Shown in pieces: positions 3,796-22,236 of a stretch of 25,517 nucleotides of DNA. Position numbers and translations under genes: made by a program. The first letter of the stretch is position 1. Every line of letters starts with the position of its first letter. The notes under the pieces were generated by a model, which was not told the DNA's origin, made no database searches, and worked only from the letters and a program-made list of their open reading frames with translations. The DNA comes from an uncultured Intestinimonas sp. (GTDB lineage: Bacteria; Bacillota; Clostridia; Oscillospirales; Oscillospiraceae), in assembly GCF_944387245.1 (NCBI RefSeq), contig NZ_CALXEE010000026.1, positions 1 to 25,517 of the forward strand, read 5' to 3'.

Positions 3796-3814
3796 GGCTC
3801 CACATTGGAAAAGG

Positions 3815-4041
3815 CAGTGACCGGGAGAAGTACGCGAGGACCCGGACCGCAGAGAGGAGCCGCTTGGGTGCAAGGCTCCCGACGGTCCCGCGGAAGGCGC
3901 CCGTGAGCCGCGGAGCGGAAATGCTCCGCCGTCTCGTCCCCGTTACGGACTTCGAGTGTGCGCCCCACGGGGCGTAAATTCAGGTGGTACCACGGACCGT
4001 CAGCGTTCGCCCTGAGCCATAAGCTCAGGGCGTTTTCTTTT
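3815..4041 (+). promoter_or_regulatory. T-box riboswitch leader, glycine (GGC) specifier, with intrinsic terminator
   Basis: AGAGAG plus a distal GGTGCAA loop (3851-3875). Specifier loop GAA-GGC-G..GTGAGC, with GGC at 3896-3898. Stem III cgcccc-ac-ggggcg. T-box motif AAATTCAGGTGGTACCACGG (3976-3995). Terminator cgccctgagc/gctcagggcg (4008-4032) followed by a T-run to 4041. Confidence 0.9.
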
Positions 4042-4077
4042 GCTTACCTTTATTTTTGTCATAAGGAGTGTCTCCCC

Positions 4078-5499
4078 ATGAAAAACACCGAAAAGACCAT
4101 GGAACAGATCGTAGCCCTGTGCAAGGGCCGTGGCTTCATCTTCGCCGGCAGCGAGATCTACGGCGGCCTGGCCAACACCTGGGACTACGGCCCCCTGGGT
4201 GTGGAGCTCAAGAACAACGTGAAAAAAGCCTGGTGGAAGAAGTTCGTCCAGGAGAACCCCTACAACGTGGGTCTGGACGCCGCCATCCTCATGAACCCCC
4301 AGGTGTGGGTGGCCTCCGGCCACGTGGGCGGCTTCTCCGACCCCCTCATGGACTGCAAGGAGTGCAAGGAGCGCTTCCGCGCCGACAAGGTCATTGAGGA
4401 CTGGTGCGCCGAGACCGGCTTCACCCTGCCCAAGCCGGTGGACGCCCTGTCCCAGGATGAGATGAAGGCCTTCGTGGAGGAGCACAACATCCCCTGCCCC
4501 TCCTGCGGCAAGCACAACTGGACCGACATCCGCCAGTTCAACCTGATGTTCAAGACCTTCCAGGGCGTCACCGAGGACGCCAAGAACACCGTCTACCTGC
4601 GCCCCGAGACCGCCCAGGGTATCTTTGTCAACTTCCAGAACGTCCAGCGCACCACCCGCAGAAAGCTGCCCTTCGGCGTGTGCCAGGTGGGCAAGAGCTT
4701 CCGCAACGAGATCACCCCCGGCAACTTCACCTTCCGCACCCGTGAGTTCGAGCAAATGGAGCTGGAGTTCTTCTGCCAGCCCGGCACCGAGCTGGATTGG
4801 TTCAAGTACTGGAAGGAGTTCTGCCACAAGTGGCTGCTGGACCTGGGCATGAAGGACGAGAACCTGCGGCTCCGGGACCACGATCCCGAGGAGCTCTCCC
4901 ACTACTCCAACGCCACCACCGACTTTGAGTTCGTCTTCCCCTTCGGCTGGGGCGAGCTGTGGGGCGTGGCCAGCCGCACCAACTTCGACCTGAACGCCCA
5001 CCAGACCACCTCCGGCAAGGACATGACCTACTTCGACCAGGAGAAGAACGAGCACTATATCCCCTACGTCATCGAGCCCTCCCTGGGCGCCGACCGCGTG
5101 ACCCTAGCCTTCCTGGTGGACGCCTACGACGAGGAGGTGGTGGACGCCGAGAAGAACGACGTCCGCACCGTCCTGCGGCTCCACCCCGCCCTGGCCCCCT
5201 TCAAGTGCGCCGTGCTGCCCCTCTCCAAGAAGCTGGGCGACAAGGCCCGGGAGATCCAGGCCGAGCTCTCCAAGTACTTCATGGTGGACTACGACGACGC
5301 CGGCTCCATCGGCAAGCGCTACCGCCGCGAGGACGAGATCGGCACCCCCTACTGCATCACCGTGGACTTCCAGACCGTGGGCGACGACAAGACCCCCGCT
5401 GACAACTGCGTCACCGTCCGCGACCGCGACACCATGGACCAGGTGCGGATTCCCATCGATCAGCTCAAGGACTATATCGCTGAAAGAATGGCGTTTTAA
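4078..5499 (+). CDS. glyQS: Glycine--tRNA ligase (class II, homodimeric GlyQS type)
   Basis: The ORF track starts at 3958 inside the T-box. The real start is ATG 4078 ([22 protein letters not shown]..) after AAGGAG. Class II motifs are present ([29 protein letters not shown]). Confidence 0.96.
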
Positions 5500-6007: not shown

Positions 6008-7864
6008 ATGAAAAAAATCCCCCTCTTTCAGCGCCATGCCGACCAGTCCTGGCCGGTGTGGAAAACCACCCTCTTCTGGGGCTGGAACCTCTTCTGGGGC
6101 CTGTGTTCCGCCCTGGGCGTAGGCCTTGTGAGCCTGGTCTTTGCCGCCGTCATCGACCAGAAGGCCATGCTCCTGAGCTACTTCCAGAACCCCCTCATCG
6201 CCTTTCTGAACCTGGCCCCGGCGGTGCTCCTCTACTTCCTGCTCTATTTCATCCTGGGCCGGGCCTCCCTGGCCTACGCTCTCACCGCCGCCATCACCCT
6301 GGGCTTCACCATGGGCAGCTGGTTCAAGCTCCAGTTCCGCAACGACCCCCTCATGTTCGAGGACCTGCTCCTTCTGAAGGAGGCCGGCAACATGGCGGGG
6401 AAGTACCAGCTCTTCCTCACCAAGACTATGATCCTGGCCCTGGTGGTCCTCATCCTCGGCTGGCTCTTTCTCCACTTCTGCGTCCGGGGCCGCCCCGGCG
6501 CCCGCCTGCGGCTGCTGGGCTTCGCCCTGGCCGTCCTCTGCGCCCTCCCCGTGTGGAATATGACCCAGAGCGACGACATCTACAACAACCGCACCGCCAA
6601 CAACGGCCTCATCAACCAGTGGTCGGCCACTCAGGTCTACGTGTCCAAGGGCTTTGTCTATCCCTTCCTCCACAGCGTGAAGTCGGCCTCCGACGCCCCG
6701 CCGGAGGGCTATGACGCCGCCCGGGCCGAGACCATCCTGGCCGGCTGCGAGGACGCCGACATCCCCGAGAACAAAAAGGTGTCGGTGATCTCCATCATGC
6801 TGGAGTCCTACGACGACTTCTCCAAGTACGGCACCCCCACCCTGGACCCCAAGGTGTACGCCGACTACCACGCCCTGGAGGCCGAGAGCCTCACCGGCGA
6901 CCTCATCACCAACATCTTCGCCGGCGGCACCGTGGACTCGGAGCGGTGCTTCCTCACCGGGTTTGCCGATCTGGGCTCCTTCCGGTCGGCCACCAACTCC
7001 TACCCCTGGTACTTCCGCAGCCAGGGCTACACCGTTACCGGCTCCCATCCCTGCTACGCCTGGTTCTACAACCGGGAGAACATCAACGTGAACCTGGGCT
7101 TTGAGGACTACCGCTTCGTAGAGAACTACTTCTCTCCCATGACCGACGGCGGCGTGGGCTACGACGATCTCTTTTTCCCGGAGCTCATCAAGCTCTGGGA
7201 ACAGGACAAGGCCCTGGGTCAGCCCGTGTTCCAGTACAACCTCACCTACCAGGGCCACGGCCCCTACAACGACGACCAGACCTGGTGGGGCGACGACTAC
7301 GTACACAACGACAAGGGCTACACCCAGGCCGAGCTCAACATCCTCAACAACTACTTTGGCTCCGTCTACAACACCAACCAGAACCTGGTGGAGTTCTTCG
7401 ACTACTTCCGGGCAGAGGAGGAGCCGGTGGTCATCGTGGTCTTTGGCGACCACAACCCCTGGCTGGGGGACGGCAACTCGGTGTATGAGGCCATCGGCCT
7501 GGACCTGGACTTCTCCACCCCCGAGGGCTTTTACAACTACTACTCCACCCGGTACCTCATCTGGGCCAACGACGCCGCCAAGGAGGTTCTGGGCAACGAC
7601 TTCGTGGGGGAGGGCCCCACGGTGAGCCCCAACTTCCTCATGAACGTGGTCTTTGACGCCTGCGGCTGGGAGGGTCCGGCCTACATGCAGGCCACTCAGT
7701 CCGTCATGGAGCAGGTCCCCGTCATGAACACCCCCACCGGCCTCTACATGGAGGACGGCGCCCTCACCGGCACCCTCACCCCCGAGGGACAGGCCCTGGT
7801 CACCGACTACGACATGCTCCAGTACTACTACCGCAAGAACTTCATCTACGACGACCTGCGCTGA
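6008..7864 (+). CDS. LTA synthase family protein (membrane-anchored sulfatase / phosphoglycerol transferase-like)
   Basis: The ORF track starts at 5504 inside repeat A2. The likely start is ATG 6008 (MKKIPLFQ..) after AAAGGA. Several N-terminal TM helices are followed by a sulfatase-type domain (SIMLESYDDF, GGTVDSERCFLTG, VVFGDHNPW). Confidence 0.85.
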   Translation: MKKIPLFQRHADQSWPVWKTTLFWGWNLFWGLCSALGVGLVSLVFAAVIDQKAMLLSYFQNPLIAFLNLAPAVLLYFLLYFILGRASLAYALTAAITLGFTMGSWFKLQFRNDPLMFEDLLLLKEAGNMAGKYQLFLTKTMILALVVLILGWLFLHFCVRGRPGARLRLLGFALAVLCALPVWNMTQSDDIYNNRTANNGLINQWSATQVYVSKGFVYPFLHSVKSASDAPPEGYDAARAETILAGCEDADIPENKKVSVISIMLESYDDFSKYGTPTLDPKVYADYHALEAESLTGDLITNIFAGGTVDSERCFLTGFADLGSFRSATNSYPWYFRSQGYTVTGSHPCYAWFYNRENINVNLGFEDYRFVENYFSPMTDGGVGYDDLFFPELIKLWEQDKALGQPVFQYNLTYQGHGPYNDDQTWWGDDYVHNDKGYTQAELNILNNYFGSVYNTNQNLVEFFDYFRAEEEPVVIVVFGDHNPWLGDGNSVYEAIGLDLDFSTPEGFYNYYSTRYLIWANDAAKEVLGNDFVGEGPTVSPNFLMNVVFDACGWEGPAYMQATQSVMEQVPVMNTPTGLYMEDGALTGTLTPEGQALVTDYDMLQYYYRKNFIYDDLR

Positions 7865-9152: not shown

Positions 9153-9420
9153 AACCCCGCCCCGAACCATTACCATTCTGTTATGTGTAAGGACGGGGGA
9201 GACGGCTTAAAACCCGTTTTGCTTTCCTGCTGGAAAAAGAACGGTTTTTGGAATCCAAAGAAAAAGGGGCTCCCGTGCGGGTTAAGCGGCTCTAAATAGG
9301 AATCCGGCGGCCCGTCTTTACGCCCCCATAGAGCACCAGCCCCGTCTACGGTAGACTACCTGGGCGGAACAGAGACAAGTTGTGGTTCTATCCAACATTT
9401 TTTCGCCGCCTGCGTGGGTG
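9153..9420 (+). repeat. Family-B repeat, copy 1
   Basis: Aligns by eye (roughly 85-90%) with 13616-13853 and 20003-20272. Shared core: ggacggg.gagacgg..aaaacccgtttt gcttccctgctggaaaaagaacggttttt..atccaaagaaaaagggg..ccaaataggaatccg..tttacgccccc..ttttt.gccgcctgcgtgg. Confidence 0.85.
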
Positions 9421-9461
9421 AAAGTTGCGGCGTAAGTTAGCGGGTGGCCTGCAAAGACGGC

Positions 9462-9527: not shown

Positions 9528-9965
9528 TTACTTGAACTTCTTACTCTCCATCACCGCCAGCTCATCACAGCGGTTGTTGTAGGGATTCTCCGCATGCCCT
9601 TTGACCCAGTGGAGGTTGACGGTATGGTAGTCGCACAGATTCAGGAGCTTCTCCCAAAGGTCGGGGTTGAGGGCGGGCTTCTTGTCGCCCTTCACCCAGC
9701 CCCGGGCCTTCCAGCCCCGGGCCCAGCCCTTCTCCAGGGCATCAATGACGTACTTGGAGTCGGAATAGAGCTCCACGATACAGGGCTCCTTCAGCGCCTC
9801 CAGGGCGGTGATGACCCCGGTGAGCTCCATGCGGTTGTTGGTGGTGTGCCCCTCGCCGCCGGAGAGCTCCTTTTTGAATTTGCCGTACATCAGGATGGCA
9901 CCCCAGCCCCCGGGGCCCGGGTTCCCCGAACAGGCGCCGTCGGTATAGATGGTGACTGTTTTCAT
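9528..9965 (-). CDS. rnhA: Ribonuclease HI
   Basis: 145 aa from ATG 9965: [22 protein letters not shown]...NNRMEL...YSDSKYV...[18 protein letters not shown], the classic RNase HI motifs. GGAAGGAGG lies immediately upstream. In the ORF track it is the C-terminal half of the 9528-10406 ORF. Confidence 0.9.
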
Positions 9966-10373
9966 AGGCCTCCTTCCATACCTTCCCCCCTCAGGGGGGA
10001 AGGTGTCCCCGCAGGGGACGAATGAGGGGGCGCTGCGCTCTGTCTCCTGTCGGATCACAGCGCACACTCCCTCAAATCGTTGTGCGATGTCCAAATTACT
10101 GAACCGGAGCAGCCGTAGATGATGGACCTGCTCCAAATACAGGTCCCGCCGTCGGTCCGCGGCCTGCCCCTGGTCCTCATAGTGCTGAGAGCCGTCCAGC
10201 TCAATGGCCAGTCTGGGCGAATGACAGTAAAAATCCACAATATAGGGTCCGAATACCACTTGACGGCGGAAGGGGAGAGGAAAGGTACGAAGAAACTGAT
10301 ACCACAGCTTTTGCTCCTCTTTTGTGGGGTTTTTTCGGAGCTTCCGGGCATTCTCCCGCATCCATGGGAGCAT
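9528..10373 (-). CDS. DUF559 (Vsr-like endonuclease domain) ORF with no stop of its own, reading in frame into rnhA
   Basis: From ATG 10373 ([65 protein letters not shown]) the DUF559 pattern is clear. No stop codon occurs before the rnhA ATG (linker ..[33 protein letters not shown]..). The GTG at 10406 is an alternative start. Confidence 0.7.
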
Positions 10374-10439
10374 ATCCACACCCCCCTCATCCGCCCCAGT
10401 GGGCACACTGGGGCACCTTCCCCCCTGTGGGGGGAAGGT
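9980..10439 (-). mobile_element. Candidate autonomous element: DUF559 gene bracketed by structured ~50-60-nt inverted ends
   Basis: Left end 9980-10030: ACCTTCCCCCC-tca-GGGGGGAAGGT, GTCCCC-gca-GGGGAC, GAATGAGGGGG. Right end 10381-10439: CCCCCCTCATCC, CCCCAGTG-ggca-CACTGGGG, ACCTTCCCCCC-tgtg-GGGGGGAAGGT. The two ends are inverted counterparts. Confidence 0.6.
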
Positions 10440-10463
10440 TTTTCTTTTCTCCTCCGCTGAACC

Positions 10464-13568: not shown

Positions 13569-13615
13569 CTATTGTTTCCTCCTTGGGTAGAGGTTCGGTT
13601 GATTTTTACGCTTGG

Positions 13616-13882
13616 GGACGGGAGAGACGCGTTCGAGCTTTCAAAAACCGTTTCGCTTCCCTGCTGGAAAAAGAACGGTTTTTGCAATCCAAAGAAAAAG
13701 GGGCTCCCGTGGGGGTTAGGTGGCTCCAAATAGGAATCCGCCGGCCCGTCTTTACGCCCCCATAGAGCACCGGCACCGTCCACAGGTGACTCCGCCGGTG
13801 GAACAGGGATACGCTGTGGTCCTATCCAACATTTTTTCGCCGCCTGCGTGGATGGGGGGCGGGACGTGGCGCCGCTGCCTGT
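13616..13882 (+). repeat. Family-B repeat, copy 2 (in the gyrB-gyrA spacer)
   Basis: Same core as 9189-9420 and 20041-20272, plus a ~28-nt extension shared with copy 3 (gacgtggcgccgctgcctg). Contains an 11-bp perfect stem caaaaaccgtt / aacggtttttg. Confidence 0.85.
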
Positions 13883-13892
13883 TTTTCCCTCC

Positions 13893-13924
13893 TATTGTGG
13901 GGTGCGGCTTCCCAGACGCACCCC
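13893..13924 (+). repeat. Family-C hairpin (stem variant with a compensated change)
   Basis: tattgtggggtgcggcttcccagacgcacccc. The stem is ggtgcg/cgcacc here and ggcgcg/cgcgcc elsewhere. The loop is identical. Confidence 0.7.
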
Positions 13925-13927
13925 TAA

Positions 13928-14126
13928 ACCTTCTCCCTCGCAGGGAGAAGGTGGCATTTGCGGAGCAAATGACGGATGAGGGTGGGTCGGTATATTTGTT
14001 CTATCCCACGCAACCCGTCCAGCATAGCTGGCCGGGCCTACGCTGAAAATGTGCTACCGCCACATTTTCTTCACGCTGCGGCCTCATCCGGCCCTGCGGG
14101 CCACCTTCCCCCCTCAGGGGGGAAGA
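13928..14126. mobile_element. D element copy 1: ORF-less MITE/REPIN-like element with the DUF559-element ends
   Basis: Left end: ACCTTCTCCC-tcgca-GGGAGAAGGT, gcatttgc-ggag-caaatg.c, GGATGAGGGTG (13974-13984). Right end: GCCTCATCCGG (14081-14091), ggccc-tgc-gggcc, ACCTTCCCCCC-tca-GGGGGGAAG. The interior has an A-run/stem/T-run hairpin aaaatgtg..cacatttt (14046-14068). Confidence 0.7.
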
Positions 14127-16580: not shown

Positions 16581-16719
16581 ACCTTCCCCCTTCCAGGGGG
16601 AAGGTGGCGGCGTGAGTCGCCGGATGAGGGTGGGCTGGTACGTTGAATTTGGCTTTTGTTCTATCCGGCTCCCCCTAATCCGGCCCTTCGGGCCACCTTC
16701 CCCCCTGTGGGGGGAAGGT
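16581..16719. mobile_element. D element copy 2 (short form, 139 bp)
   Basis: Left end: ACCTTCCCCC-ttcca-GGGGGAAGGT, ggcggc-gtga-gtcgcc, GGATGAGGGTG (16622-16632). Right end: CCCTAATCCGG, ggccc-ttc-gggcc, ACCTTCCCCCC-tgtg-GGGGGGAAGGT (16695-16719). The interior matches D1 and D3 up to ttctatcc, then lacks ~70-80 nt. The right end lies 2 nt from the recF stop. Confidence 0.7.
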
Positions 16720-16721
16720 TT

Positions 16722-17825
16722 TCAGACCAGCTCTCCGCCGTGGATATGGAATACGGCACCGTGGTCCAATCCCTCTAAACCGTCGTCCTCGCAGCAGGTG
16801 ATGAATACCTGGCCGCCGGTGATGCGGTGGAGGACGAACTCCTGCCGCCGCCGGTCCAGCTCGCTGAGCACGTCGTCCAGCAGCAGCACCGGCCACTCCC
16901 CGGTGTCGTGGTAGAAGATCTCCCGGCAGCCCAGCTTCAGGGAGAGGGCCGCCGTCCGGGTCTGCCCCTGGGAGGCGTAGGTCTTGGCCTCCAGGTCGTT
17001 AATCCGCACCACCATATCGTCCTTGTGGGGTCCGGTAAGACACTGCCGGGCTTCCAGCTCGGCCTGGCGGTGGGTGCGCTGGTGCTCAAGCACCGCCTCC
17101 AGGAGGTCCCGGGTGGGGACCAGGGGGTCGGCCACGGTGCTCACCGTAGCGTAGCCCAGGTCCAGCTGCTCCCGCCCACCGGAGAAGTCGGCATGGACGG
17201 CGGCCGCCGTCTCCCGGAGCCGCTTTAAGAAGTGGGCCCGGTAGTGGATGAGCACCGCCCCCGCCTGGGCCATCTGGTAACTGAAGTCGTCCAGGGTGTC
17301 CAGCAGGTCGGGCTTTTCCTCCCAGTCCCGGAGGATGCGGGTCTTGTGCTCATAGAGCCGCTTGTACTGGGACAGGGCGGCGGCGTACCGGGGCCGGAGC
17401 TGGCAGATGCACTCGTCCAGAAACCGCCGCCGCTCGGCGGCCCCCGCCCGGATGAGGGACAGGTCCTCGGGGCAGAAGAGGACGGTTTGCAGCACCCCGG
17501 AGAGCTCCCCGGCGGTCTTGAGGCGTACCCCGTTGGAGAAGAGCTGCCGCCGCTGGCCCCGGTGGAGCCGGGCCTCCAGCCGGAAGGTCCGCTGCCGGGC
17601 CTCCACCGTGGCCTTCACCACGGCGGAGGGCGCCTCCAGCCGGATGAGCTCCCGGTCGTACCGGGCCCGGTGGGAGGAGGCGGTGGAGAGATAGGCCACG
17701 GCCTCCAGCAGATTGGTCTTGCCCTGAGCATTCTCCCCGTAGATCACGTTGACCCCCGGGGAGAAAGCCGCCTCCAGCCGGCGGTAGTTGCGAAAGTCCT
17801 CCAGGGCCAGGGCGTCCACCCTCAT
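16722..17825 (-). CDS. recF: DNA replication/repair protein RecF
   Basis: 367 aa. It has the Walker A motif [13 protein letters not shown] and the signature SQGQ...[11 protein letters not shown]. Its ATG overlaps the yaaA stop (ATGA). Confidence 0.97.
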
Positions 17826-18482: not shown

Positions 18483-19595
18483 TCACTCGCCTGCCTTCAG
18501 CCGAACGGGCAGCACCATATAGAGGAAGTTCTCCTCCCCCTCGGCGGGGAGGATGACGCAGGGGGCCACCCCGGAACTGAGCTCCAGCCGCACCTTGTCG
18601 GTGGGGGCGGCCTTCAGGGCGTCCATGAGGTAGCGGTTGTTGAAGCCGATTTCCAGATTCTGGCCATCCCCGGAGATGGGGCACTGGTCGGCGGCGTCGC
18701 CGATGCCGGTTTTGGTGGTGATGCTCAGCACGTTGTCCCCAAAGACGCAGCGCAGGGGGGACTTGAGCTTGTCGGAGATGATGAGGGAGACGCGGTCGAT
18801 GGAGGTGAGGAGGGTGCGGGTCTCGCCCTCCACCTTGATGGCGTTGTTGCGGGGGATGGCCTGGCGGTAGGCCAAAAACTCACCTTCCAGCCGGCGGGAC
18901 ACCAGCATGGTGTCCCCCATGCGGAACATGACGTGACGGTCGCCCTCGATGACCAGGGCCTCGTCCTGGCTGTCGCCGCAGATCTTTTCCACCTCATTGA
19001 GGGCGGCGCCGGGCACCACGAAGGAGAAGGAGAGGGCGCCGTCCTTTTCCAGAATGGGCTCGTGGCGGAGGGCCAGCCGGTAGCCGTCCACGCTGACCAT
19101 GGTGAGGCCGTCGGCGCTCACCTCGAAGAGGGAGCCGGTGTGGATGGGGCGGGACTCGTTGTCGCTGACGGCGAAAATGGTCTGCCGGATCATGGAGCCC
19201 AGCTTGTCCCGGGAAATGGAGAAGCTGTTCTGGTCCTCCACGGCGGGCAGGTCGGGAAAGTCCTCGGGATCGGTGGCCAGGATGTTAAACTTGCTCATGC
19301 CGCAGGTGATGTTCACCATATAGCCGTCGGCGGAGAAGGACACCACGTCGTCGGGCAGCTTGCGGATGATCTCGCCAAAAAGGCGGGCGGAGAGGACCAG
19401 GCTGCCCTCCCGCTCGATCTGGGCGGGGACAATGGTGCGGATGCCGGTCTCCAGGTTGTAGCCGGTGAGGCGGAGCTGGTCTCCGGCCTCCACCAGAATG
19501 CCCTCCAGGGCGGGAATGGAGCTCTTGAGGGAGACGGCCCGGGCCGTGGTGGCGATGGCCGACTGAAGGAGTGCTTTTTCACAGGAAAACTTCAT
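18483..19595 (-). CDS. dnaN: DNA polymerase III beta subunit (sliding clamp)
   Basis: The ORF track extends to 19913 through the DnaA-box cluster. The real start is ATG 19595 (MKFSCEKALLQSAIATTARAVS..), giving 370 aa. The C-terminal ..YLMDALK.. motif is typical of DnaN. Confidence 0.95.
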   Translation of the reverse strand: MKFSCEKALLQSAIATTARAVSLKSSIPALEGILVEAGDQLRLTGYNLETGIRTIVPAQIEREGSLVLSARLFGEIIRKLPDDVVSFSADGYMVNITCGMSKFNILATDPEDFPDLPAVEDQNSFSISRDKLGSMIRQTIFAVSDNESRPIHTGSLFEVSADGLTMVSVDGYRLALRHEPILEKDGALSFSFVVPGAALNEVEKICGDSQDEALVIEGDRHVMFRMGDTMLVSRRLEGEFLAYRQAIPRNNAIKVEGETRTLLTSIDRVSLIISDKLKSPLRCVFGDNVLSITTKTGIGDAADQCPISGDGQNLEIGFNNRYLMDALKAAPTDKVRLELSSGVAPCVILPAEGEENFLYMVLPVRLKAGE

Positions 19596-19639
19596 GGGAG
19601 TGGGTTCCCTTCCTTTCGTGCTCCGCTCGTTTTTGAGGA

Positions 19640-19818
19640 GAGGAGAGGATAAAAGATAGAAATAGTACTCGTAGTATAAAATATTGTGGAAAAGCGTCGG
19701 AAAGCCTTGGGAGAGAGGACGCGGGGCGTCCACAGGGGTGGTGGACAAATTTCGAGGGTTTCCACACAGGGGAAAAAGGGCGAAAAATTGTCCACAGGGG
19801 ATTATCCACATTTCCACA
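19640..19818 (-). other. oriC module between dnaA and dnaN: AT-rich unwinding candidate plus DnaA-box cluster
   Basis: Boxes relative to TTATCCACA: perfect at 19802-19810; TTGTCCACA at 19788-19796; TTTTCCACA (minus strand) at 19685-19693; 2-mismatch boxes at 19740-19748, 19758-19766 and 19810-19818. The AT-rich stretch 19651-19684 has a 3-nt periodic array TAG AAA TAG TAC TCG TAG TAT AAA ATA directly abutting a box. Confidence 0.75.
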
Positions 19819-19977
19819 AAAACCGGTGGATTTCGACCCTTTGGGTTTTCCAGCGGTAAATGGGTATTTATACAGAAAATGCATAGAGTTGCATGCTGAG
19901 TATGCAGGGCCATGCAGGATTTCCGTCATTTGCAGGAGGGCCGTTTTTCGCCTTCCCTGAAAGGCTGTTTGCCTTGT

Positions 19978-20002
19978 CGTAGGGGCGGACAGCATCCGCC
20001 CG
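19978..20002 (+). repeat. G-type hairpin
   Basis: cgtaggggcgga-cagca-tccgcccg. Confidence 0.6.
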
Positions 20003-20300
20003 TTAAACCACGTACCGGCCCATTGCTTTCTGTTGCGTAAAAGGACGGGAGAGACGGCTCAAAACCCGTTTTGCTTCCCTGCTGGAAAAAGAACGGTTTT
20101 TGAAATCCAAAGAAAAAGGGGCTTCTAAGCGGGTTAGGTGGCTCCAAATAGGAATCCGGCGGCCCGGCTTTACGCCCCCGTTGAGGTCCAGCCCCGTCTA
20201 CGGTAGACTACCTGGGCGGAACAGGGGCAAGCTGTGGTCCTATCCCCACTTTTTTTGCCGCCTGCGTGGGTGGGTGTCGGGGCGTGGTGGCGCTGCCTGG
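20003..20300 (+). repeat. Family-B repeat, copy 3 (in the dnaA-dnaN spacer)
   Basis: Aligns with 9153-9420 including the ~35-nt left linker, and with 13616-13882 including the right extension. Confidence 0.85.
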
Positions 20301-20346
20301 GATTGCCTCATCTGCAACGTGGGGTGGTTTGAGGGGCGGTGCGCTA

Positions 20347-20557
20347 ACCTTCCCCCATCCAGGGGGAAGGTGGCATTTGCGGAGCAAATGACGGATGAGG
20401 GTGCGTTAGTGTGGCGGATTTGGCTTTTTTTCTATCCAGCGAAACCCGTCCAGCATAGCTGGCCGGGCCTACGCTAAAAATGTGGCACCGGCACATTTTT
20501 TTCACGCTGCGGCCTCATCTGCCCCTTCGGGGCACCTTCTCCCCCGGGGGAGAAGGT
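20347..20557. mobile_element. D element copy 3 (long form, 211 bp)
   Basis: Left end: ACCTTCCCCC-atcca-GGGGGAAGGT, gcatttgc-ggag-caaatg.c, GGATGAGGGTG (20393-20403). Right end: GCCTCATCTG, tgcccc-ttc-ggggca, ACCTTCTCCCCC/GGGGGAGAAGGT (20534-20557). The interior is collinear with D1. Confidence 0.7.
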
Positions 20558-20580
20558 TTTTGTGGGGAGTGGGCCTTTGA

Positions 20581-20604
20581 CCTTTCCTCTTCCAGGGGGA
20601 AGGC
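20581..20604. repeat. Degenerate P-type palindrome abutting the dnaA stop
   Basis: cctttcctc-ttcca-gggggaagg (imperfect 5' arm), ending 1-2 nt from the dnaA stop codon. Confidence 0.4.
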
Positions 20605-20605
20605 T

Positions 20606-21934
20606 TTACTCGTACCGGGCGTTGATATTGGCCCGGATGTCCTTGATGACCTCGGAGATCTCGGGGGTGGTCTTTTTGAGCTTTTCGATGCGCTCGATGG
20701 AGTGGAGGACGGTGGTGTGGTCCCGGTTCTCGAATTCCCGGCCGATCTCCTTCAGGGACATGTTGGTCATCTCCCGGATGAGGTACATGGCCACCTGCCG
20801 GGCCAGGGCGGTGTCCTTGGTACGGCCCTGCCCGCGGAGGGCGCTGTTTTCGATGTTATAGAAGTTGCAGACCTCCTCGATGATGACGTCGGAGGTGGGC
20901 ATGATGTCGGAGGGGTCCTTGAACATATCCCGCACGGCCCGGGTGACGGTGGCGGCGTCGATGCTGCTCCCCTCCAGGTCCCGGAGGGCCATGATCTTGT
21001 TGACGGTGCCCTCGATCTGCCGCACGTTGGCGGTGATGTTCTCGGCCACGTACTGCAAAACCGCCTCGGGCAGCTCCACCCCCATGCGGATGGCCTTGTT
21101 TTTGATAATGGCCATGCGGGTCTCGTAGTCCGGGGGCTGGATGTCGGCGATGAGGCCCCACTCGAACCGGGTCTTCAGACGGTCCTCCAGCTTGAGCATC
21201 TCCTTGGGGGGACGGTCGGCGGTAAAGACGATCTGTTTCCGGGTCTCATAGAGGGTATTGAAGGTGTGGAACATCTCCTCCATGGTGGAGTCCTTGCCGG
21301 CGATGAACTGGACGTCGTCCATCAAAAACACGTCGGCGGAGCGGAACTTCTCCCGGAACTCCTGGTTGCGGCCCTCCCGGATGGCCTGGATGAGCTCATT
21401 GGTGAAGGCGTCGCCCTTGATGTAGACGATGCGGTAGTCGGGGTGGTCGTCGTGGATCTTGTGGGCGATGGCGTAGAGGAGGTGGGTTTTGCCCAGGCCG
21501 GACTCGCCGTAGATGAAGAGGGGATTGTAGTTCATGGCGGGGTGGTCGGCCACCGCACGGGCGGCGGCGTGGGCGAACTTGTTGGACGAGCCCACAACGA
21601 ACCGCTCAAAGGTATACTCCTCCGTGCCGGGGAGGAAACTGTCGTCCTTGGGGGCGGTATTGCGCTGCCGGCGCTCCAGATCGCCGTCCCCCAGCACCTC
21701 CACCTGGAAGTCGGCGGAGAAGAGCTCGTGGAGGGCCTTCTGGATGGGGGGCAGGTAGCGGGAGACGATGATGTCCCGCTTGAAGTCGGACGGGGTGTGG
21801 AGGATGAACTTGTCGCCCTCCATGGATACGGCCACCGTATCGTCAAACCAGGTATGGATGGTGGTGGCGGTCATGTCCGCCTCCATGAGGACAAGGACCC
21901 GGGACCAGATGTCGGCGGCGGAATTCATGGCCAT
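20606..21934 (-). CDS. dnaA: Chromosomal replication initiator protein DnaA
   Basis: The ORF track starts at TTG 21958. ATG 21934 (MAMNSAADIWSRV..) lies 8 nt after GGGAGG, giving 442 aa. It has the AAA+ Walker A motif GESGLGKTHLL and the C-terminal DnaA-box-binding helix (..HTTVLHSIERI..). Confidence 0.98.
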   Translation of the reverse strand: MAMNSAADIWSRVLVLMEADMTATTIHTWFDDTVAVSMEGDKFILHTPSDFKRDIIVSRYLPPIQKALHELFSADFQVEVLGDGDLERRQRNTAPKDDSFLPGTEEYTFERFVVGSSNKFAHAAARAVADHPAMNYNPLFIYGESGLGKTHLLYAIAHKIHDDHPDYRIVYIKGDAFTNELIQAIREGRNQEFREKFRSADVFLMDDVQFIAGKDSTMEEMFHTFNTLYETRKQIVFTADRPPKEMLKLEDRLKTRFEWGLIADIQPPDYETRMAIIKNKAIRMGVELPEAVLQYVAENITANVRQIEGTVNKIMALRDLEGSSIDAATVTRAVRDMFKDPSDIMPTSDVIIEEVCNFYNIENSALRGQGRTKDTALARQVAMYLIREMTNMSLKEIGREFENRDHTTVLHSIERIEKLKKTTPEISEVIKDIRANINARYE

Positions 21935-22131
21935 GGCTGAGACCTCCCTTTGTTGCAAAATGCGTTCTCTCTCCCGTTCCAGGGCAGCAAAGCATCACCC
22001 TTAAAGGCGGACCTTCAAGGATGACGCTGGGTGCCCCGTGGACGGGAGCCTCTTTATCTATGGCGCGCAAGGGCGGAAAGTTGTACGTTCGCGTACACAT
22101 TATAACAAAAATAAGCGGGGTAAGCAATAAG

Positions 22132-22236
22132 TTTTCCACAGGGCTATCCACTTTTCCACAGGGAAAAAAGTGGGGCAGGAGGGCCTGTGGCACAACATCT
22201 TGTGTGTAAGGGAAAGTCCTTGACATATGTGGAAAT
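22132..22236. other. oriC module upstream of dnaA: DnaA-box cluster
   Basis: TTTTCCACA at 22132-22140 and 22152-22160, CTATCCACT at 22144-22152, and ATTTCCACA (minus strand) at 22228-22236. Confidence 0.65.

What the first reader, a model, noticed from the sequence alone, without database searches (positions are those of the whole stretch)
20003..20604. Replication-origin spacer (dnaA-dnaN) invaded by a composite B + D repeat array
Seen: the dnaA-dnaN spacer is ~1010 bp (19596-20605). Only its dnaN-proximal ~180 bp (19640-19818) looks like functional oriC (DnaA boxes plus an AT-rich stretch). The dnaA-proximal ~630 bp is a G hairpin, B copy 3, D copy 3 and a degenerate palindrome. The same B-then-D order occurs in the gyrB-gyrA spacer (13616-14126), so B+D behaves as one composite unit of ~510-555 bp.

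Established: in Firmicutes the dnaA-dnaN spacer carries the DnaA boxes, DnaA-trios and unwinding element needed for initiation.

Inference: the origin tolerates, or uses, about 0.6 kb of cruciform-prone DNA between dnaA and the box cluster. Extrusion-prone palindromes next to a supercoiling-sensitive origin could affect initiation or dnaA/dnaN transcription.
Basis: partly seen in the sequence, partly recalled or inferred. Interest (0 to 1): 0.62.

Follow-up and report, generated by a model that had tools for sequence, protein, structure and literature searches.

The report
Repeat pile-up beside the replication origin
The long gap between dnaA and dnaN in this gut Intestinimonas genome is a normal replication origin plus about 630 bases of lineage-specific repeated DNA that close relatives lack, and the main repeat (B) is unusual in being concentrated around the origin.

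Summary
The dnaA-dnaN spacer is 1010 bp. Bases 19596-19975 are unique; 19976-20603 are repeats: G hairpin, B, D, and a degenerate palindrome 2 nt from the dnaA stop.

All DnaA boxes (19685-19818) and the AT-rich stretch (19644-19695) lie in the unique part. That part is conserved in 13 congeneric genomes whose spacers run from 250 to 1010 bp. A close relative (G003, DnaA 98% identical) has a 392-bp spacer without the array. G013 has B only, G004 has G+B, and only this genome has D. So the origin tolerates a stepwise pile-up and shows no sign of needing it.

B and D are separate elements, not one composite. At both B-then-D loci, sister species G004 has B without D.

B is a new, ORF-less element of about 250 nt found only in Intestinimonas. 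It has 28 copies here and at least 37 in G004, and matches no Rfam family. No partner transposase was identified.

B copies cluster around oriC in four species, while a second repeat family in the same genome is dispersed.

The scan has noted repeat insertions in or next to origin regions in other genomes before.

The parts
19596..19830 (-). Conserved oriC core. It holds an AT-rich unwinding-type stretch (19644-19695) with TAG/TAC/TAT trio-like repeats next to the box at 19685. The DnaA boxes are at 19685, 19740, 19758, 19788, 19802 (perfect TTATCCACA) and 19810.
   Evidence: Box and AT-content scan. This stretch aligns in all 13 congeneric spacers.
19831..19975 (-). Unique sequence, with 19831-19940 conserved only in the close clade (G003, G004, G007, G012, G013). 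It holds five TGCAT/TGCAG motifs and a TGTATAAAT extended -10-like site on the dnaN strand. It may be the dnaN promoter region (inference).
   Evidence: Single-copy in the genome. Alignment with relatives. The strict promoter scan found nothing here.
19976..20018 (+). G hairpin module (GTAGGGGCGGACAGCATCCGCCC) with a CAAACCAC-type linker. A G- or C-type hairpin with a GT(A/G)GGG leader lies in front of long-form B copies.
   Evidence: Nine matches to the motif, all on B-bearing contigs. Present in G004 at this site and absent in G013.
20019..20315 (+). B element (core 20056-20300). It has no ORF and no terminal inverted repeats. It has a long P1 hairpin at 20059-20103 and a central hairpin at 20196-20208.
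   Evidence: 28 copies in the genome. Orthologous copies in G004 and G013. Hairpins kept by compensatory changes across subfamilies B, B' and B''.
20346..20557 (+). D element. Left end: P palindrome 20347-20371, then hairpin 20373-20393, then GGATGAGG. Right end: CCTCATC, then hairpin 20518-20532, then a perfect 24-bp palindrome at 20534-20557 followed by a T-run.
   Evidence: Repeat families D3, D4, D6 and D14. Inverted repeats. Terminator-like site on the + strand. Absent at this site in G004 and G013.
20580..20603 (.). Degenerate solo P palindrome, ending 2 nt from the dnaA stop codon.
   Evidence: Sequence. Also present in G013, which has no D.
13610..14126 (+). The second B-then-D locus, in the gyrB-gyrA spacer: B, then a C hairpin, then D.
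   Evidence: Collinear repeats. At this site G004 has B, the C hairpin and a single P palindrome.
9176..9433 (+). The third B copy in the window, lying between convergent genes.

Best explanation
The spacer is a Bacillus-type origin module (DnaA-box cluster plus an AT-rich unwinding stretch next to dnaN). Non-coding, hairpin-rich interspersed repeats have been added to it stepwise, in the permissive zone just after the dnaA stop codon.

Shown:
- The origin module is conserved and sufficient in sister species.
- The added DNA differs from species to species: none in G003, B in G013, G+B in G004, G+B+D here.
- The added DNA has no DnaA boxes.
- B and D were gained or lost independently.

Inferred:
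- B and D are selfish, non-autonomous elements that spread by block insertion and by gene conversion among copies.
- They survive only downstream of gene 3' ends, where they break nothing.
- dnaN is served by its own promoter in the unique 19831-19975 stretch.

B's concentration around the origin is most simply explained by regionally restricted spread: local copying or conversion, possibly helped by the higher copy number of origin-proximal DNA. A role in replication is the less simple reading. The enzyme that moves B is unknown.
For: Spacer lengths across the genus run from 250 to 1010 bp, and 19596-19830 is conserved in all.

No DnaA box lies in the array.

B is present in only some species of the genus. 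It was not found in G002, G003, G006, G008 or G010, nor in 395 genomes of other genera of the family. The exact core occurs only in Intestinimonas or Intestinimonas-like MAGs among the species genomes scanned.

All 28 copies are intergenic. None lies between divergent genes, and copies occur in both orientations relative to their neighbours.

Across 114 collinear kb, about 9 B sites are shared between this genome and G004, 4-5 are specific to this genome and 4 are specific to G004.

One clean filled/empty pair exists. A 456-bp composite sits between TAAGG and AGGTG of an operon junction and is flanked by AAGG on both sides.

Private mutations in this genome's copies are not depleted in the blocks that are invariant in other species: 24 in 111 columns against 17 in 124. 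Single copies are therefore not under strong purifying selection.

Orthologous copies differ by 8-14%, as much as paralogues do (5-15%). The best match of the origin copy is a paralogue at 96%, while its G004 and G013 orthologues match at about 90%. This indicates turnover or conversion.
Against: No terminal inverted repeats. No partner transposase was identified:
- TnpB is absent.
- Y1 transposase fragments are also present in the B-free G011.
- DUF559 is missing from G013.

Only one clean empty site supports a target duplication.

Sequence blocks and two hairpins are conserved across subfamilies that are about 70% identical. This could also mean a function for the host.

No isolation by distance was seen within the 114-kb contig (Mantel r = -0.05). 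Very local hopping is therefore not shown, and the confinement to the origin region has no demonstrated mechanism.
Confidence: 0.65

Rival explanations
1. B is a host-used structured RNA or RNA-level cis element, for example a small RNA family or a bidirectional terminator or insulator placed after genes. The origin copy would be one such unit serving dnaA.
For: About 40% of columns are invariant among 62 copies. The P1 and central hairpins are kept by double substitutions across B, B' and B'': 90.9% of cells are paired against 36-56% when partners are slid, and 8 pairs change on both sides against 2-4. One-sided changes are mostly G-U compatible on the + strand. B never lies in a divergent promoter region. 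T-runs follow stems on both strands.
Against: No Rfam match even at E = 10. Both strands fold about equally well, with almost no covariation within subfamily B. Fold energy is not better than shuffles. Orientation relative to genes is mixed (13 antisense and 5 sense among co-directional contexts). The T-run is missing in B' and B''. Private mutations hit the conserved blocks as often as other columns. Sister species differ in whether a site is occupied.
Confidence: 0.15
2. The repeats have been recruited for origin or origin-domain function. Examples: landmarks bound by an organiser of the origin-proximal chromosome domain (as parS or RacA ram sites are), or supercoil-sensitive structures that tune initiation.
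For: Concentration around oriC: 15 copies lie on the 114-kb dnaA contig of G004. The mapped B contigs of G004 and G013 fall at -170 to +307 kb on a complete congener, apart from G004 contig C30 and single loci on C8 and C2 (C75, found later, was not mapped). The same holds for 11 of 13 mapped contigs of this genome and for 9 of 10 B' contigs of G007. A control repeat family is dispersed. B sits at oriC itself in three species.
Against: The origin spacer lacks B in G003 and in the B-free species. The array's content varies between species. Single copies show no constraint. The parS sites (5, all on one contig) have a different and much narrower distribution. B'' copies in G009 are not clearly confined. 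No binding protein is known.
Confidence: 0.1
3. B+D is a single composite mobile unit of about 510-555 bp that was copied as a whole into both the gyrB-gyrA and dnaA-dnaN spacers.
For: The two loci are collinear, with constant offsets of 6418-6431. A D-type P end starts 288-298 nt after the B start in 5 copies.
Against: In G004, both loci have B without D. G013 has B alone at the origin. 23 of 28 B copies have no D downstream. D modules often lie upstream of B or on their own.
Confidence: 0.07

Closest known systems
IS6110 insertion hot spot in the dnaA-dnaN (oriC) region of Mycobacterium tuberculosis (Kurepina 1998 and Turcios 2009, as cited in PMC3701491)
   Same: [quoted passage not shown] Occupancy differs between lineages.
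   Different: IS6110 is an autonomous 1.35-kb IS with its own transposase. Here the inserts are ORF-less modules of 25-300 nt, nested in a mosaic, and no partner enzyme has been identified.
Bacterial interspersed mosaic elements (REP/BIME of enterobacteria) and pneumococcal BOX elements
   Same: Short hairpin modules are combined in variable order in gene 3' flanks. They are non-coding, number tens of copies, and are absent from divergent promoter regions.
   Different: Those families are spread round the whole chromosome (from my own knowledge). B and its companion modules are concentrated round oriC. B is much longer than a REP. No RAYT gene flanked by the repeats was found.
MITEs such as the Neisseria Correia elements
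   Same: Non-autonomous, ORF-less and multi-copy, with insertion polymorphism between close relatives. D has structured inverted ends.
   Different: B has no terminal inverted repeats. Only one possible 4-bp duplication was seen. No parent IS was found.
Bacillus subtilis oriC, dnaA-dnaN part (incC: DnaA boxes, DnaA-trios, AT-rich DUE)
   Same: The same order of parts: dnaA, boxes, trio-like repeats, AT-rich stretch, dnaN. There is a second box cluster upstream of dnaA.
   Different: The spacer is about 3-4 times the length of the shortest spacers in the genus (250-290 bp), because of the added repeats.
Origin-proximal site families: parS (ParB) and RacA ram sites of B. subtilis
   Same: Tens of copies are confined to a few hundred kb round the origin. 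This resembles B's distribution only.
   Different: Those are 14-16-bp protein-binding sites under selection. B is a 250-nt element with turnover and no known binder. This is a lead recalled from memory, not a tested membership.

Membership tests
Bacillus-type oriC (dnaA-dnaN part) | Cluster of DnaA boxes (TTATCCACA-like) between dnaA and dnaN | tested here: met
   Six boxes lie at 19685-19818, one of them perfect. Only 10 boxes with at most 1 mismatch occur in the whole window.
Bacillus-type oriC (dnaA-dnaN part) | AT-rich unwinding stretch with DnaA-trio-like repeats next to the outermost box, on the dnaN side | tested here: inconclusive
   19644-19695 is 70-80% AT in a genome of 62.5% GC. 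TAG/TAC/TAT triplets are visible next to the 19685 box. No functional test was done.
Bacillus-type oriC (dnaA-dnaN part) | Conservation of the module in relatives | tested here: met
   19596-19830 aligns in all 13 congeneric spacers.
MITE | Terminal inverted repeats | tested here: not met
   B: no inverted ends were seen in the alignment of 28 copies with flanks or in the inverted-repeat scan. D does have structured inverted ends.
MITE | Target-site duplication at filled versus empty sites | tested here: inconclusive
   There is one clean pair, with AAGG on both sides of a 456-bp composite. The other polymorphic sites are too scrambled to read.
MITE | Parent autonomous element with the same ends in the genome | tested here: not met
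No longer element shares B sequence. This gene is absent from G013, and G004 has only a weak domain hit inside a 1729-aa open frame.
REP/BIME with RAYT | Y1 (RAYT) transposase gene flanked by the repeats | tested here: not met
   Y1 fragments lie on C9 and C83. The C9 copy has an in-frame stop, is not flanked by the modules, and lies far from the origin. A Y1 fragment is also present in the B-free G011.
IS200/IS605-derived element or TnpB guide RNA | TnpB gene in the genome, and element orientation tied to the direction of replication | tested here: not met
   No TnpB in G000, G004 or G013. Orientations are mixed on both sides of dnaA on G004:C4.
Described structured RNA family (Rfam 15) | Match to a covariance model | tested here: not met
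   No match at the gathering threshold in the window, and no meaningful match at E up to 10 in 19590-20610.

The most novel reading that the evidence does not exclude
B elements, or a motif inside them, mark an origin-proximal chromosome domain of roughly 0.5 Mb in a clade of Intestinimonas. They would act as landmarks for a factor that organises or segregates the origin region. Alternatively, they are copied by a replication-coupled mechanism that works only near oriC. In either case the copy inside the dnaA-dnaN spacer would belong to that system and not be a passenger.
Probability: 0.1. Interest if true: 0.8.

Novelty: new variant of a known kind. Interest (0 to 1): 0.42.

Why it matters
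On its own, mobile clutter in an origin spacer is ordinary. It shows which part of a firmicute oriC is dispensable: everything between the dnaA stop codon and about 110 bp before the box cluster.

The less ordinary point is that a repeat family of 28 to at least 37 copies stays near the origin in several species, while another family in the same genome is spread evenly. If regional spread causes this, it is a natural marker of how such elements are copied. If selection causes it, it points to an unknown origin-domain function.

Two cultured strains carry the family, Intestinimonas sp. HCP28S3_D6 and I. aquisgranensis CLA-AA-H199, so both readings can be tested.

Tried and rejected
- Rfam at the gathering threshold and at E up to 10: nothing relevant.
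- A TnpB guide-RNA or IS605-derivative origin for B: no TnpB gene and no strand bias.
- A RAYT/REP system: the Y1 fragments are unlinked to the repeats and are also present in a B-free genome.
- DUF559 nuclease as the general mobiliser: it is the only such gene in this genome and lies in the window. It is absent from G013, and G004 has only a weak domain hit.
- B as a coding sequence: one frame is open in the consensus, but common variants put TAG in that frame and copies differ by 1-nt indels.
- RNAalifold within subfamily B: the covariation term is only -1.27 and both strands fold about equally. Mutual information is dominated by two linked haplotypes.
- Isolation by distance among the 15 copies on G004:C4: none.
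- A link to parS: five sites, all on contig C45.
- Phage and plasmid collections: no match to B. Only the roughly 50-nt right end of D matches unannotated DNA in Rhizobium, Shinella and Xanthomonas plasmids.
- My first gene caller mis-stranded genes and was replaced.

Full report
**1. The locus**

Pfam identifies dnaA (20606-21958), dnaN (18483-19595), recF, gyrB and gyrA, all on the minus strand. The window is contig C26 of a 2.31-Mb, 136-contig assembly with 62.5% GC, rated 82% complete.

**2. What is unique and what is repeated**

A BLAST of the spacer against the window's own genome shows 19596-19975 as single-copy and 19976-20556 as repeated. Depth reaches 26-29 over 20056-20300. The array reads as follows:
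- G hairpin at 19982-20002.
- B at about 20019-20315.
- D at 20346-20557.
- A degenerate P palindrome at 20580-20603, ending 2 nt before the dnaA stop.

DnaA boxes lie at 19685-19818, including one perfect TTATCCACA at 19802. The only strongly AT-rich stretch next to them is 19644-19695. A second box group lies upstream of dnaA at 22132-22228. No box with at most one mismatch lies in the array. The order dnaA, boxes, AT-rich stretch, dnaN matches the Bacillus subtilis incC region (from my own knowledge).

**3. Relatives**

The genus is Intestinimonas. G004 is Intestinimonas sp. HCP28S3_D6 (identified by its 114,338-bp contig 4), and G013 appears to be I. aquisgranensis CLA-AA-H199.

| Genome | dnaA-dnaN spacer (bp) |
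|---|---|
| This genome (G000) | 1010 |
| G004 | 829 |
| G013 | 742 |
| G005 | 701 |
| G012 | 668 |
| G007 | 560 |
| G014 | 459 |
| G003 | 392 |
| G011 | 288 |
| G006 | 287 |
| G002 | 284 |
| G010 | 269 |
| G008 | 250 |

Window 19596-19830 aligns in all 13 genomes, and 19831-19940 aligns only in the close clade.

- G003 (DnaA 98% identical) has no array.
- G013 has B, without the G hairpin and without D.
- G004 (DnaA 100% identical) has G+B but no D.
- G012 and G007 carry other, unrelated inserts at the same end.

The dnaA-proximal end of the spacer is therefore a dumping ground whose content changes from species to species.

**4. B and D are separate**

In the gyrB-gyrA spacer, G004 has B, a C hairpin and one P palindrome that abuts the gyrB end. 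This genome has a full D there, with a P palindrome at each end. So at both 'B-then-D' loci the sister species lacks D.

Of the 28 B copies in this genome:
- 5 have a D-type end starting 288-298 nt after the B start.
- About 9 have a D left end 36 nt upstream.
- About 5 have a whole short D upstream.
- The rest have G- or C-type hairpins.

D itself is a mosaic whose pieces have their own copy numbers. Earlier notes of this scan (e1-3804908, e1-3804909) say that D's three-part ends also bracket the DUF559 nuclease gene at 9528-10406. I confirmed that this is the only DUF559 gene in the genome. It has no counterpart in G013, and only a weak domain hit in G004.

**5. What B is**

B is found in 28 copies here at 81-96% identity and in at least 37 copies in G004. 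There are many in G013 and G001. Subfamilies at about 70% identity occur in G007 (B') and G009 (B''). None were found in G002, G003, G006, G008 or G010.

The conserved core pattern was not found in 395 genomes of other genera of the family. The exact 21-mer occurs only in Intestinimonas assemblies and one mislabelled MAG among the species genomes scanned.

B matches no Rfam family, no phage and no plasmid. It has no usable ORF and no inverted ends. TnpB is absent, and Y1 transposase fragments are unlinked to it.

All copies are intergenic. Contexts, written as (upstream gene, downstream gene) relative to B's orientation, are opp/opp 13, same/opp 6 and same/same 5. None lies between divergent genes.

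**6. Structure**

Within subfamily B, RNAalifold gives almost no covariation and both strands fold equally well. The 335-nt unit folds no better than shuffles.

Across B, B' and B'', two hairpins are kept by double substitutions. In the long P1 stem, AA/TT becomes GG/CC. In the central hairpin, GTCTAC/GTAGAC becomes GGCCG/CGGCC. With my structure, 90.9% of cells pair, against 36-56% when partners are slid. Eight pairs change on both sides, against 2-4 in the slid controls. I derived the structure from these same sequences, and the events are few.

Conserved blocks alternate with a hypervariable stretch of about 35 nt.

**7. Selfish or useful**

Columns that are invariant in the 59 copies from other genomes carry as many private mutations in this genome's copies as the variable columns do: 24 in 111 against 17 in 124. 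Strong purifying selection on single copies is therefore unlikely. The conserved blocks look like requirements for propagation, not for the host.

Orthologous copies in this genome and G004 differ by 8-14%, as much as paralogues do. The origin copy's best match is a paralogue at 96%. This points to conversion or replacement.

Across 114 collinear kb, about 9 B sites are shared, 4-5 are specific to this genome and 4 are specific to G004. One pair is clean. G004 reads TAAGG|AGGTG at an operon junction. This genome has a 456-bp composite there (a D-type end, a C hairpin, B and another C hairpin), flanked by AAGG on both sides, and the ribosome-binding site is kept. Other polymorphic sites are too rearranged to read.

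**8. Concentration round the origin (new in this follow-up)**

Direct evidence:
- G004 contig 4 (114 kb, dnaA at 92.7 kb) holds 15 B copies.
- This genome's contigs C50-C15-C45-C117-C59-C26 are collinear with it and hold 13 of the 28 copies.

Mapping evidence. I mapped one protein per contig onto the complete, essentially B-free genome G011, where dnaA is at position 1.
- This genome: the remaining B contigs fall at 24, 49, 95, 121, 157 and 302 kb. Two fall at 2069 and 2106 kb and one is unplaced. Seven large B-free contigs fall at 646-2907 kb.
- G004: the mapped B contigs fall between -170 and +302 kb. The exceptions are C30 (2069 kb) and loci on C8 (2100 kb) and C2 (2753 kb). C8 and C2 each also hold a B locus that maps inside the domain (136 and 302 kb), so those distant segments adjoin the origin region in G004. 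C75 was not mapped.
- G013: all 12 B contigs fall between -80 and +307 kb; one of them (contig 3) rests on a weak 48% match.
- G007: 9 of 10 B' contigs fall between -50 and +307 kb.
- G009: B'' is not clearly confined.

Companion modules. P palindromes (86 of 96 matches), P-hairpin-9-mer ends (38 of 41) and G hairpins (9 of 9) sit on the same contigs, which make up 15% of the assembly.

Control. Another abundant family (GAGCCTGTCGACAAAGTCGACAGGCTC..., about 50 or more copies) is dispersed, with about 17% of its hits on those contigs.

Limits. Positions are inferred through synteny with another species. No B-bearing genome is closed. Contig sets were partly defined by the feature being counted. 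No distance effect was seen within the 114-kb contig.

**9. Reading**

The origin tolerates the array; nothing suggests that it uses it. The closest published parallel is the IS6110 hot spot in the dnaA-dnaN region of M. tuberculosis (PMC3701491). This scan has also noted repeat insertions in or next to origin regions in other genomes (e1-2745790, e1-820812, e1-4666622, e1-1220633).

The mosaic of modules works like BIME or BOX elements. Membership in the MITE, REP/RAYT or IS605-derived families fails on the features that define them.

Why B keeps to the origin region is unexplained. Regional copying is the simpler account. An origin-domain function remains possible at about one chance in ten.

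Noticed in passing
window 19876-19936: Five TGCAT/TGCAG motifs lie within 60 nt, in the clade-conserved unique part of the spacer between the box cluster and the repeats. They may be regulator sites or part of the dnaN promoter.
   Followed up: no
L002 (G004:C4) just downstream of dnaA: In G004 the last 13 nt of dnaA, including the stop codon (CCGGTACGAGTAA), occur a second time 10 nt after the real stop. This looks like a footprint or a target duplication at the gene end.
   Followed up: no
G000 contigs C64:96-451, C13:12406-12728, C1:101107-101357 and many contig ends: A second abundant repeat family of about 250-350 nt (GAGCCTGTCGACAAAGTCGACAGGCTC..., roughly 50 or more copies) is dispersed over the genome. 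It often sits at contig ends, so it probably breaks the assembly.
   Followed up: partly
G000:C45:3069-5844: Five parS-like sites (TGTTTCACGTGAAACA, 0-1 mismatch) are clustered on one contig. That contig lies about 25-38 kb upstream of dnaA by synteny with G004.
   Followed up: partly
window 20506-20556: The right end of D (the CCTCATC 9-mer, a hairpin and a P palindrome) matches unannotated DNA in Rhizobium, Shinella and Xanthomonas plasmids at 85-91% over about 50 nt, with up to 8 places per record. This end type reaches far beyond Clostridia.
   Followed up: no
G000:C9:9687-9995 (L096): A low-GC Y1 (IS200-like) transposase fragment with an in-frame stop. It is not flanked by the repeat modules and maps far from the origin.
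   Followed up: partly
G004 contigs C8 and C2 compared with G011: Synteny breaks. G004:C8 joins G011 positions 136 kb and 2100 kb. G004:C2 joins 302 kb and 2753 kb. The origin region is therefore arranged differently in B-bearing species than in the complete congener.
   Followed up: no
window 16692-16722 and 10414-10442: P palindromes followed by a T-run are oriented so as to stop + strand (antisense) transcription running into the 3' ends of minus-strand genes such as recF. They are not oriented to terminate those genes themselves.
   Followed up: no
window 3808-4017: A T-box leader (Rfam RF00230, 95.4 bits) lies upstream of the gene at 3958-5499.
   Followed up: no
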